Origin: a virus
Virus genome (UHGV): UHGV-0030196
Length of the DNA: 61,145 bases
Reading direction: 5' to 3' (one strand)
Part shown: positions 7,488-8,681 of the stretch, one piece after another
Position numbering within the stretch: position 1 is the first letter of the stretch
Layout: each line of letters opens with the position of its first letter
Position numbers and translations under genes: made by a program
Notes under the pieces: model-generated
What the model saw: only the letters and a program-made list of their open reading frames with translations
Databases searched by the model: none
What the model was told of the DNA's origin: nothing

Positions 7488-8681
7488 TTATGCTTTTTTT
7501 ACATACTCCATGAACATTTTTTCAGCTTGTGCTGGTGGTGTTCCAGCCATGACAAGCGCATCAATGAACGCCTGCTTCTTCAGTGCGAACTGATCGGCAA
7601 GGCGTTGCTGAAGCTCCTTGTTTTTCTGTTTCTCACGTTGCAAGGCCGCTTCTTTTGCTGCCGCCCGTTTTTTCTGTGCATCTGACAACTTTCTGGCCTT
7701 GGTCAATTGGTCACGTAGTTTGTCGATCTTGCCGTTGTCCTTTGCCAGTTTTGTACTTAAAGCTGCCTGGCGCTTCTGATAGAGTCTCCATTCGCGTTTG
7801 GCGGCTTCAACGTTCGTTTTACTGCTACGATTGCGATTAAACTCCTTCTCGTCTTCTTTTGAGAAGTGTTTGGTTGTACGGCGGCGATCGTCACCAAATG
7901 CAATTTGCGTTGCAGCCTTTTGTAGCGCACGAGCAATACTCATTTGCCAACTGGCGGACTGTAACCGCGTCATTGAGTGGATCACGTGTTTACAGGCGAC
8001 GCCTTGCAGCTTCGGGTTGCGAACTTTTGGATAGGCGTATTCTTTTGGCGGTGCCAGGGCAAAGTTACCCGCAGTGGCGATGTAACGATACCAGTATTGA
8101 TGACGACCACAGTCACAATCGAAAGACACTCGCCCGGCGCACAGTGATTTAGTGATTTTGAGAGCTGATTTATCGTCTTCTGCGATGTCATCAACCATCT
8201 GATCCCATTCTTCAAAGCGTATCCGGACGATATGGTGCTGGTGGACGGATATATCCGATGCTTCTACGCGGATATTAATCACATTGTGGCGAAGAGATAC
8301 GGGTGTAGCTCTTTTGATACCAGATCCGTCATCCACGGCGTTATTTGCACGCTTAATATCGATTGCCTGGCTGGATGCCACCAGCTGGGCGTATGTGATG
8401 CCTGCCGTCTTACTGTCATATTTTTCGCGCGTTTTACTCCGTAGCTTTTCGAAGCCTTTCAGATCGTCTCGCGTAAAGAACGTGCCGCCTTTCTTCTTCC
8501 CCAACTTGAGAATATCTTCGGCGGATTTGTTCCTCAGTCTGCCGGGCGTCAGCGTCCGGTGAGCTTGTCGGCGCTTACGGGTTTGTTCTTTACTGATAAG
8601 GTCGAATAAACGCGTGAAGTCCTTAGAGGACAGGCCATCAGTGATATAGCGCCCGTCCTGGTTTTTCAGGAAATCAGGCAT
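7488..8681 (-). CDS. SWIM-type zinc-finger-like protein with K/R-rich coiled-coil tail
   Basis: FDCDCGRH...VACKHVIH (CxCxnCxH pattern); basic C-terminus. Confidence 0.5.
   Translation of the reverse strand: MPDFLKNQDGRYITDGLSSKDFTRLFDLISKEQTRKRRQAHRTLTPGRLRNKSAEDILKLGKKKGGTFFTRDDLKGFEKLRSKTREKYDSKTAGITYAQLVASSQAIDIKRANNAVDDGSGIKRATPVSLRHNVINIRVEASDISVHQHHIVRIRFEEWDQMVDDIAEDDKSALKITKSLCAGRVSFDCDCGRHQYWYRYIATAGNFALAPPKEYAYPKVRNPKLQGVACKHVIHSMTRLQSASWQMSIARALQKAATQIAFGDDRRRTTKHFSKEDEKEFNRNRSSKTNVEAAKREWRLYQKRQAALSTKLAKDNGKIDKLRDQLTKARKLSDAQKKRAAAKEAALQREKQKNKELQQRLADQFALKKQAFIDALVMAGTPPAQAEKMFMEYVKKA

What the first reader, a model, noticed from the sequence alone, without database searches (positions are those of the whole stretch)
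7488..8681. SWIM-like zinc-finger protein with a long basic coiled-coil tail
The CxC...CxH pattern (FDCDCGRH...VACKH) followed by ~120 aa of K/R/E-rich coiled coil suggests a nucleic-acid-binding protein. It sits in the accessory block between the AT-rich gene and the secreted pair.
Basis: inference. Interest (0 to 1): 0.35.

Follow-up and report, generated by a model that had tools for sequence, protein, structure and literature searches.

The report
Phage tail-assembly protein with SWIM finger
This gene is the phage P1 "gene 25" tail-morphogenesis protein of a D6-like phage-plasmid; it carries an invariant zinc-finger-like (SWIM-type) motif and is strongly basic, and although it is a known, essential gene, its molecular job is still unknown because it does not appear in any solved P1 particle structure.

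Summary
The ORF (7488-8681, minus strand, 397 aa) is real. It is 98.8% identical in DNA to phage D6 orf74 and 57% identical in protein to P1 gp25, the "tail stability" protein. It is a core late morphogenetic gene, not accessory cargo. Its start overlaps the stop of gp26, the baseplate plug. In D6-like phages a toxin-antitoxin/orf73 insert separates it from gp7 (stopper) and gp24 (tail terminator).

The CxC...CxH motif (C189, C191, C230, H232) was present in all 132 full-length representatives tested, from a family of 633 clusters at 50% identity. The spacer is a long, highly conserved 36-43 residues.

Short homologues of 130-290 aa occur in unrelated large myophages. All six checked keep the motif. 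Pfam SWIM is the only family matching all six; one passes the Pfam threshold. In the Gram-positive phages the gene lies in the neck gene cluster.

The protein is basic in every member (pI 9-11). The C-terminal tail is a predicted long basic helix, but a coiled coil is not demonstrated.

No solved structure resembles it. P1 cryo-EM models omit gp25, and virion mass spectrometry found two peptides.

Most likely it is a zinc-stabilised, low-copy or transient tail-completion or head-tail joining factor. Nucleic-acid binding is possible but untested.

The parts
7488..8681 (-). CDS, 397 aa: orthologue of phage P1 gene 25 / phage D6 orf74 ('tail stability' or 'tail protein'), phrog_1722
   Evidence: ORF. 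98.8% nt identity to D6 69466-70659. D6 annotation reads 'similar to P1 gene 25'. 57% aa identity to P1 gp25 over residues 1-334. phrog_1722 at E 1.3e-196.
8412..8681 (-). N-terminal basic helical region (residues 1-90, net charge +11); present only in the long, P1-like forms
   Evidence: Helices 19-39, 46-50, 54-58 and 71-87 in the AF2 model. Composition. The short homologues lack this region.
7896..8411 (-). Conserved alpha/beta core (residues 91-262): three-stranded sheet plus the SWIM-like module. This is the unit shared with the short homologues.
   Evidence: Core-only AF2 model has pLDDT 90.2 and pTM 0.86. Conservation profile. PHROG hits of the short homologues map to this region.
7986..8117 (-). 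SWIM-type putative Zn site, C189-x-C191-x38-C230-x-H232. The conserved spacer reads RHQYWYRY...PxE..PK.RNP.L.G.ACKH.
   Evidence: Translation. Ligand positions and G94, E214, P218, N222, G227, K231 are invariant. Motif present in 132/132 representatives. Secondary structure: strand 185-189, helix 192-205, loop, helix 231-239.
7491..7811 (-). Basic C-terminal helical tail (residues 291-397, net charge +14); sequence is poorly conserved but its basic character is conserved
8674..9003 (-). Upstream cistron: homologue of the P1 gp26 / T4 gp53-like baseplate 'plug'. Its TGA overlaps the gene 25 ATG (ATGCCTGA), implying translational coupling.
   Evidence: phrog_1269 at E 2e-36. PDB match to P1 Gp26 in 9ay5/9vzk at E 1e-16. 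Overlap read. The pair is conserved in 9/10 distant and 14/14 close loci.
7456..7479 (.). Hairpin followed by a T-run in the 33-nt gap between the convergent stops of gene 25 and orf73. Terminator-like on both strands. In this phage it ends the 26-25 transcript.
   Evidence: RNA fold dG -16.7 kcal/mol, z -2.6.
5061..5894 (-). gp7 homologue (head-tail connector 'stopper' in P1). It directly follows gene 25 in most relatives.
   Evidence: phrog_1906. PDB match to P1 Gp7 in 9ums at E 7e-43. Role taken from PMC12810830. Synteny.
4297..5064 (-). gp24 homologue (hexameric tail terminator in P1)
   Evidence: phrog_1767. PDB match to P1 Gp24 in 8jan at E 2e-14. Role taken from PMC10304247.
5941..7454 (+). 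Accessory insertion that splits 26-25 from 7-24-6-5: HigB toxin (5941-6300), HTH antitoxin (6304-6663), and the AT-rich orf73 (6726-7454)
   Evidence: Pfam HigB_toxin at E 5e-34 and HTH_3 at E 3.5e-5. phrog_8191. GC 0.38-0.40. Comparison with D6. Other relatives have gp7 abutting gp25.

Best explanation
Shown:
- The ORF encodes the gp25-family morphogenetic protein of a D6-like member of the P1 group of phage-plasmids.
- It is expressed from the late 26-25 cistron pair.
- Its conserved core is an alpha/beta domain. Three cysteines and one histidine (C189, C191, C230, H232) are arranged as an atypically spaced SWIM-type finger.
- The 38-residue spacer is the most conserved surface of the protein.

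Inferred:
- The four residues hold a structural zinc ion. The conserved spacer loop is the working surface that recognises a partner protein during tail completion or head-tail joining. This is the same step served by its genomic neighbours gp7 (stopper) and gp24 (terminator), whose mutants share the 'tail stability' label.
- The basic N- and C-terminal helices, which are specific to the P1-like lineage, would anchor it to an acidic surface (the tail-tube lumen or the acidic neck proteins) or to DNA.
- It acts transiently, or stays in the particle at a few copies in an asymmetric or disordered position. That would explain why it is essential and detectable by mass spectrometry, yet absent from every symmetrised cryo-EM model of P1.
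For: Identity:
-.

Essential morphogenetic gene:
- P1 genes 25 and 26 were discovered as amber mutants. Gene 25 is annotated 'tail stability', as is gene 7; gene 24 is 'baseplate or tail stability' (PMC10695390).

Zn-site geometry and invariance:
-.

SWIM relationship:
-.

Not in the ordered virion:
- PMC12810830 built models for nearly all P1 proteins (gp7 stopper, gp24 terminator, gp26 plug and others) but not gp25.
- The same is true of the independent baseplate study.
- The PDB holds P1 Gp26, Gp24 and Gp7 but nothing matching gp25.

Low-level presence in virions:
- P1 virion mass spectrometry found 2 peptides (8.4% coverage) for gp25. That is the same count as for gp7, which is a true 6-copy component (PMC9024508).

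Gene-order association with neck and tail-completion genes:
- 26-25-7-24 is contiguous in P1-like relatives.
- In Bacillus phages HSE3 and SP-15 and Listeria phage LIS04, the short homologue lies in the gene run between the head-tail adaptor (gp13-like neck) gene and the sheath gene. In HSE3 that run also holds a P2 gpS-like tail-completion gene and a T4 gp15-like terminator. Streptococcus phage GXN1 has the same neck-to-sheath placement.

Charge contrast:
- gp25 has pI 10.0, against 4.3-5.2 for gp26, gp7 and gp24.
Against: - No experiment or structure places gp25 anywhere, and zinc binding is unproven.
- The tightest conserved linkage is to gp26, a baseplate protein.
- In Thermus phage phiLo the short homologue sits directly upstream of a T4 gp25-like baseplate wedge gene. 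A baseplate-assembly role is therefore about as well supported by gene order as a neck role.
- In Maribacter phages the neighbours are uninformative.
- The 'tail stability' phenotype is known to me only through later annotations. The original EM paper (Walker & Walker 1983) could not be read.
- P1 CRISPRi knock-down of gene 25 scored as non-essential (EOP 0.11). The authors attribute this to an ineffective roadblock.
Confidence: 0.5

Rival explanations
1. Baseplate-assembly cofactor of gp26. gp25 would bind the LysM-like 'plug' gp26 as it is made (the two are translationally coupled). It would chaperone insertion of gp26 between the hub (gp6) and the wedges, then leave. Without it, baseplates would be mis-assembled and would trigger sheath contraction, giving 'unstable tails'.
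For: - The gp26-like ORF abuts or overlaps the gp25-like ORF in 9/10 distant loci and 14/14 close loci, across about 25-100% identity.
- The phiLo short homologue is directly upstream of a T4 gp25-like wedge gene.
- gp25 is absent from the final baseplate models.
- Gonzales et al. suggest that gp7, gp16 and gp25 may be chaperones or cofactors analogous to T4 gp26/gp51.
Against: - In four Gram-positive myophages, the short homologue's annotated or PHROG-identifiable neighbours are neck and tail-completion genes; no baseplate gene lies between the neck gene and the sheath.
- Xanthomonas phage Rb1 has the gene without an adjacent gp26-like ORF.
- The peptides found in purified virions argue against a purely transient factor.
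Confidence: 0.22
2. Virion-borne protein that binds the DNA end or pilots the DNA, functionally analogous to T4 gp2. One or a few copies would sit in the neck or tail channel, hold or protect the end of the packaged DNA through the zinc finger and basic helices, and be needed for productive head-tail joining.
For: - The family is basic throughout (pI 9.0-11.2, 132/132 members), in contrast to its acidic structural neighbours.
- It carries a SWIM-type finger.
- A low-copy virion signal without ordered density fits this model.
- T4 encodes a basic protein in a comparable neighbourhood: pI 10.1, annotated 'DNA end protector', lying between head closure gp4 and terminator gp3, next to gp53 and gp5.
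Against: - No homology to T4 gp2: hhalign probability 0.15, and gp2 has no cysteine.
- The basic tails are lineage-specific. The Streptococcus short form is acidic overall, pI 5.0.
- The mutant phenotype is annotated as a tail defect rather than normal-looking inactive particles.
- No DNA-binding data exist.
Confidence: 0.15
3. Ordinary structural component of a flexible, unresolved part of the tail, for example a fibre-baseplate adaptor or a protein associated with the tape measure inside the tube.
For: - P1 maps leave the tape measure Sit, the UpfB tripod and the fibres unresolved.
- The baseplate preprint allows for 'some unknown protein' linking fibres to gp16.
- Peptides were detected in virions.
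- In phage Rb1 the gene follows a tape-measure-like ORF.
Against: - Gene order elsewhere never links it to fibre genes, apart from one fibre-like ORF in ABMM1.
- The very low peptide count does not fit a multi-copy fibre adaptor.
- A zinc finger with an invariant loop is unusual for such a role.
Confidence: 0.08
4. Nucleic-acid-binding regulator of late or tail gene expression (the first reader's reading, and the 'MvaT transcriptional regulator' label on the Xanthomonas phage Rb1 homologue).
For: - The protein is basic and carries a zinc-finger-like motif.
- The Rb1 record carries the 'MvaT' annotation.
Against: - No match to any DNA-binding or regulator family in Pfam, NCBIfam or PHROGs.
- The gene is always embedded in structural modules.
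- It is detected in purified virions.
- The Rb1 label has no support from the family searches here.
Confidence: 0.05

Closest known systems
Phage P1 gp25 ('tail stability protein', gene 25) and phage D6 orf74; PHROG 1722
   Same: - Full-length orthologue: 99% aa identity to D6 and 57% to P1.
- Same position after gene 26.
- Same invariant residues.
   Different: - The C-terminal ~60 residues diverge from P1; tblastn covers only residues 1-334.
- In D6-like genomes a toxin-antitoxin/orf73 insert and a terminator separate it from genes 7-24-6-5, whereas P1-type relatives have them contiguous.
SWIM zinc finger (Pfam PF04434; PROSITE SWIM-type)
   Same: - C-x-C...C-x-H ligand order.
- A 'CKH' entering a helix.
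- Short relatives have 'C[ST]CPDF.YR', which I recall (not tested) as close to the SWIM consensus, and they match the Pfam model, one above threshold.
- Structural matches to phage proteins that UniProt labels SWIM-type.
   Different: - The spacer is 36-43 residues and is itself highly conserved. From memory, typical SWIM spacers are much shorter.
- The segment after CxC is predicted helical rather than a strand.
- The window protein gets no Pfam hit.
- The role here is virion morphogenesis, not chromatin or transposase contexts.
Short SWIM-type proteins of large myophages (Bacillus HSE3 gp067, SP-15 SP15_038, Listeria LIS04_65, Streptococcus GXN1 ORF, Maribacter Molly gp126, Thermus phiLo_129; PHROG 4315 in part)
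   Same: - Same core and same signature, including E..P.K..NP...G..CKH.
- They lie in tail or neck gene clusters.
   Different: - They are 130-290 aa and lack the basic N-terminal region and the long basic C-terminal helix.
- They are not paired with a gp26-like gene.
T4 gp2 (DNA end protector)
   Same: - Basic (pI 10.1).
- Encoded beside the head-closure and tail-terminator genes and next to gp53/gp5.
- From memory: a low-copy virion protein.
   Different: - No detectable homology and no cysteines.
- The analogy rests on gene position only.

Membership tests
P1 gp25 family (PHROG 1722) | Full-length sequence similarity to P1 gp25 / D6 orf74 | tested here: met
   phrog_1722 at E 1.3e-196 over residues 2-396. 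98.8% nt identity to D6. 57% aa identity to P1 gp25.
P1 gp25 family (PHROG 1722) | Position in the late operon directly after gene 26 and before genes 7-24-6-5 | tested here: met
   The stop of gp26 overlaps the start of gene 25. gp7, gp24, gp6 and gp5 homologues lie downstream after a 1.5-kb insert. Relatives are contiguous.
P1 gp25 family (PHROG 1722) | Essential for tail morphogenesis (amber phenotype 'tail stability') | not testable with these tools
   Known only for P1, from the literature.
SWIM zinc finger (PF04434) | C-x-C-x(n)-C-x-H ligand signature, conserved among homologues | tested here: met
   Present in 132/132 representatives, with the four positions invariant. Present in 6/6 short homologues.
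SWIM zinc finger (PF04434) | Score at or above Pfam's gathering threshold | tested here: not met
   The window protein has no hit at E <= 0.1. 14/68 relatives hit only below threshold, covering profile positions 23-37. Among the short homologues, 6/6 hit and one reaches 19.9 bits against the 19.6 cut-off. Membership therefore rests on transitive homology.
SWIM zinc finger (PF04434) | Compact spacing between the CxC and CxH halves | tested here: not met
   The spacer is 38 residues here and 36-43 in the family. The Pfam model is only 38 positions long.
SWIM zinc finger (PF04434) | Fold resembling known SWIM domains | tested here: inconclusive
   Foldseek against BFVD gives probability 1.0 to predicted phage proteins, two of them named SWIM-type. 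There is no PDB match for the whole protein or the core model. Model coordinates could not be inspected for ligand distances.
SWIM zinc finger (PF04434) | Binds zinc | not testable with these tools
   Requires metal analysis of purified protein.
Coiled coil | Significant heptad periodicity of hydrophobic residues | tested here: not met
   Power at period 3.5 is not above shuffles (p = 0.20). The best register is 61% hydrophobic at a/d positions. AF2 predicts only a long monomeric helix.
T4 gp2 DNA end protector | Sequence or profile homology | tested here: not met
   hhalign probability 0.15. gp2 has no Cys.
Virion structural protein of P1 (ordered component) | Modelled in cryo-EM maps or present in the PDB | tested here: not met
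   No PDB sequence match, while Gp26, Gp24 and Gp7 are present. gp25 is not among the proteins modelled in PMC12810830, PMC10304247 or the bioRxiv baseplate study.

The most novel reading that the evidence does not exclude
gp25-type proteins would define a previously unrecognised, zinc-dependent class of morphogenetic factor. The class would be shared by contractile-tailed phages of Proteobacteria, Firmicutes, Bacteroidota and Thermus. One or a few copies would sit asymmetrically in the neck or tail channel, hold the end of the packaged DNA, and license head-tail joining. In P1 it could then be the long-unidentified protein reported (from memory: Ikeda & Tomizawa 1965; Sandri & Berger 1980) to stay bound to transduced DNA and hold abortively transduced fragments in a protected form.
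Probability: 0.1. Interest if true: 0.75.

Novelty: new member of a known kind. Interest (0 to 1): 0.38.

Why it matters
P1 is the classic transducing phage, and nearly all of its virion has now been modelled at near-atomic resolution. gp25 is one of the few essential morphogenetic proteins left without a location or a mechanism, and HHpred gave its investigators no lead (PMC9024508).

The analysis here gives concrete handles for finding where and when it acts:
- Its core is an invariant SWIM-type metal site with a conserved loop.
- The same core exists as a small stand-alone protein in neck or baseplate modules of distant myophages.
- It yields the same peptide count in virion mass spectrometry as the 6-copy stopper.

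These point to four point mutants, a minimal domain and defined candidate partners.

For annotation, it corrects labels such as 'MvaT transcriptional regulator', and it shows that the gene is core rather than accessory.

Tried and rejected
- PDB sequence search with the protein and with the short Bacillus homologue: only chance-level hits.
- Foldseek against the PDB with the full model and with a high-confidence core-only model: nothing below E 0.3. The recurring kinase N-lobe hits have probability at or below 0.28 and were dismissed.
- NCBIfam: no family.
- Pfam on ten longer family members, looking for extra domains: none.
- Homology of gp25 to T4 gp2: rejected.
- A conserved ~165-185-aa ORF follows gp25 in distant relatives. 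I tested whether it is a diverged gp7 stopper. BLASTP, jackhmmer, hhalign (probability 0.2) and a PDB profile search gave no support, so I do not claim it.
- Heptad test for a coiled coil: not significant.
- Literature searches for 'tail stability protein', phage SWIM proteins and P1 abortive-transduction proteins returned nothing usable.
- The Lobocka 2004 and Walker & Walker 1983 papers are not held in the library.
- The 'MvaT' label of the Rb1 homologue has no support from any family search and was discarded.
- I could not inspect model coordinates, so clustering of the four ligands in 3D is inferred from secondary structure only.
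Full report
**Observation**

The window holds an ATG-to-stop ORF at exactly 7488-8681 on the minus strand, 397 aa. 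Nucleotides 7986-8117 encode CDCGRHQYWYRYIATAGNFALAPPKEYAYPKVRNPKLQGVACKH. The protein has only four cysteines, at positions 181, 189, 191 and 230. The last 107 residues (nt 7491-7811) are rich in K/R, A and Q, with net charge +14. So the ORF, the motif and the basic tail are all really there.

**Identity**

The DNA is 98.8% identical to Escherichia phage D6, positions 69466-70659. There the gene is orf74, 'tail protein, similar to P1 gene 25'.
- The protein is 57% identical to P1 gp25 over residues 1-334.
- It matches PHROG 1722 ('tail protein') at E 1.3e-196.
- Pfam, NCBIfam and a PDB sequence search give nothing.

The window therefore comes from a D6-like member of the P1 group of phage-plasmids, and the finding is P1's gene 25.

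**Genomic setting**

The gene 25 ATG overlaps the stop of the upstream ORF 8674-9003 (sequence ATGCCTGA). That upstream ORF is the homologue of P1 gp26: PHROG 1269, and a PDB match to P1 Gp26 in 9ay5/9vzk. P1 gp26 is the T4 gp53-like 'plug' that glues the wedges to the hub.

Downstream lie homologues of:
- gp7, the connector stopper (PDB 9ums);
- gp24, the tail terminator (PDB 8jan);
- gp6 and gp5.

In most relatives 26-25-7-24 are contiguous. Here, as in D6, a plus-strand insert at 5941-7454 and a terminator-like hairpin at 7456-7479 separate gene 25 from gene 7. The insert holds a HigB toxin, an HTH antitoxin and the AT-rich orf73.

**Conservation of the motif**

A word-indexed search found 301 relatives. 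A profile search of 1.84 billion representative proteins found 633 clusters at 50% identity.
- C189, C191, C230 and H232 are invariant in 27 close homologues and in alignments of 134 and 68 divergent members at 24-50% identity.
- The pattern C-x-C-x(36-43)-C-x-H is present in 132/132 full-length representatives, mostly with a 37-38-residue spacer.
- The spacer is the best-conserved stretch of the protein. R193, W197, R199, Y200, E214, P218, K219, N222, G227 and K231 are invariant or nearly so.

Conservation this strong points to a functional site, not just a structural staple.

**Is it a SWIM finger?**

Directly, no: the window protein has no Pfam hit. Indirectly, the case is good.
- PF04434 is the only Pfam family that recurs among relatives (14 of 68, best E 0.0024). 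Those matches cover profile positions 23-37, the CxH half.
- The predicted structure (pLDDT 82) matches small predicted phage proteins in BFVD at probability 1.0. Two of them are named 'SWIM-type domain-containing protein' by UniProt.
- tblastn and PHROG searches reveal short homologues of the core in six phages: Bacillus HSE3 gp067, SP-15 SP15_038, Listeria LIS04_65, a Streptococcus GXN1 ORF, Maribacter Molly gp126 and Thermus phiLo_129 (130-290 aa).
- All six keep C[ST]CPDF.YR ... P..I.NP...G..CKH with spacers of 37-43 residues.
- All six hit Pfam SWIM. One is above the gathering score. In HSE3 (E 0.034) and LIS04 (E 0.004) the HMM alignment spans both halves across the insert; the weaker SP-15 and GXN1 hits cover the same span.

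I conclude that this is a SWIM-type module with an unusually long, conserved insert. A high-confidence core-only model (pLDDT 90, pTM 0.86) has no neighbour in the PDB. No solved structure represents this variant.

**The tail and overall charge**

AlphaFold2 predicts a 61-residue helix at 318-378. Heptad periodicity is not significant (p = 0.2), so 'coiled coil' is unproven.

The whole protein is basic, not only the tail. Its pI is 10.0. Family pI ranges from 9.0 to 11.2, and all 132 members are above 9. Its structural neighbours gp26, gp7 and gp24 have pI 4.3-5.2. The tail sequence is poorly conserved, but its positive charge is kept in 127/132 members. The short homologues lack the N- and C-terminal extensions. 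Five of the six are still basic; the Streptococcus one is acidic.

**What is known experimentally (literature)**

- P1 genes 25 and 26 were found as amber mutants and are treated as essential. Gene 25 is annotated 'tail stability', as is gene 7; gene 24 is 'baseplate or tail stability' (PMC10695390).
- P1 virion proteomics found gp25 with two peptides (8.4% coverage). HHpred gave no role. The authors suggested that such proteins may be cofactors or chaperones (PMC9024508).
- In the same table gp7, now known to be a 6-copy stopper, also had only two peptides.
- Three cryo-EM studies have modelled the P1 tail, neck, baseplate and capsid. None includes gp25. The tape measure, the UpfB tripod and the fibres remain unresolved.

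**Gene-neighbourhood evidence**

- In ten distant loci (25-40% identity), a gp26-like ORF abuts or overlaps the gp25-like ORF in nine. The exception is Xanthomonas phage Rb1.
- These loci carry the pair near the large terminase, portal and protease genes.
- They are followed by a conserved ~165-185-aa ORF that I could not link to gp7.
- In HSE3, SP-15, LIS04 and GXN1 the short homologue lies in the neck module. The HSE3 order is: major capsid, x, adaptor (gp13-like neck protein), x, SWIM, x, P2 gpS-like tail completion, T4 gp15-like terminator, x, sheath, tube.
- In Thermus phage phiLo it lies directly upstream of a T4 gp25-like wedge gene.

Gene order therefore ties the family to contractile-tail morphogenesis. 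It points both to the neck or tail-completion step and to the baseplate.

**Mechanism**

Shown:
- identity and late-operon coupling to gp26;
- invariant SWIM-type ligand set with a conserved loop;
- basic character;
- absence from ordered virion models;
- weak presence in virions.

Inferred:
- The four residues bind a structural zinc.
- The conserved loop is a recognition surface.
- The protein acts as a low-copy or transient adaptor in tail completion or head-tail joining. This is the step of gp7 and gp24, which share its phenotype label and its neighbourhood.
- The basic helices contact an acidic surface or DNA.

I give this composite a confidence of 0.5.

Rivals:
- a gp26-specific baseplate-assembly cofactor (0.22);
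- a T4 gp2-like DNA-end protein (0.15). T4 has a basic 'DNA end protector' in a comparable gene neighbourhood, but it is not homologous;
- an unresolved flexible structural component (0.08);
- a gene regulator (0.05).

**Novelty and verdict**

The gene is a known, annotated orthologue of P1 gene 25, so it is a new member of a known kind. Three points appear not to be stated in the papers I could read:
- the invariant SWIM-type site with a long conserved insert;
- short stand-alone homologues of the core in distant myophages;
- a charge contrast with its partners.

Interest is moderate (0.38). This is an ordinary core phage gene, but it is one of the last essential P1 morphogenetic proteins without a place or a mechanism, and the analysis yields direct experiments.

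Noticed in passing
window 5941-6663 (+), compared with L001 (D6) 10019-11146: The window carries a HigB toxin (PF09907, E 5e-34) followed by an HTH antitoxin. D6 is near-identical through orf73 and the HTH gene. Where the window has HigB, D6 has a different toxin-antitoxin pair, which leaves the D6 HTH gene (annotated 'transcriptional regulator') as an apparent orphan antitoxin. This looks like cassette swapping at one site between genes 25 and 7.
   Followed up: partly
window 6726-7454 (+): AT-rich ORF (GC about 0.38-0.40 locally) of 242 aa, PHROG 8191, function unknown. The sequence has hydrophobic N-terminal segments. There are only chance-level Pfam/NCBIfam hits to coiled-coil or TniB-like models. 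It is convergent with gene 25.
   Followed up: partly
window 7456-7479: A 9-bp GC-rich hairpin with T-runs on both strands lies in the 33-nt gap between the convergent stops of gene 25 and orf73. It is a likely bidirectional terminator.
   Followed up: yes
L002 5699-6247; L003 9884-10387; L084 4322-4813; L085 8971-9507; L086 8996-9529; L087 9019-9573; L088 8975-9862; L090 9174-9680; L091 5765-6259: An ORF starting MLN..V and ending ..PPF..RY..NRRDDL follows the gp25-like gene in nine distant loci (about 165-185 aa; 295 aa in L088). The copies are mutually homologous. They are not detectably related to the gp7 stopper or to any PDB chain. This may be a positional equivalent of gp7.
   Followed up: partly
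L003 8758-9879 (Xanthomonas phage Rb1, PQ569993): The gp25-family homologue is annotated 'transcriptional regulator MvaT / nucleoid-associated protein', and a 2026 paper repeats that label for the homologous region. No family search here supports it. It is likely an annotation artefact of the basic tail.
   Followed up: partly
window 9332-10027 (-) and L089 4367-5068: A homologue of Mat ('maturation control protein', PHROG 1837) lies upstream of gene 26 in the window and in D6. It is also upstream in a relative at 33% identity. In P1, mat sits beside ref and res in the gene table, away from genes 26-25. This suggests an ancestral mat-26-25-7-24-6-5 arrangement.
   Followed up: no
D6 annotates a 'simB-like superimmunity accessory' gene in this neighbourhood.
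   Followed up: no
L094 998-3515 (Bacillus phage SP-15): The major capsid protein gene of SP-15 is annotated as joined from two pieces around an endonuclease ORF, that is, an intervening element inside the capsid gene.
   Followed up: no
L092 5777-6706 and L002 10889-11656: PHROG 1053 (unknown function) appears just upstream of the short SWIM gene in Bacillus phage HSE3 and just after the sheath gene in Acinetobacter phage ABMM1. This is another uncharacterised tail or neck family that travels with this module.
   Followed up: no
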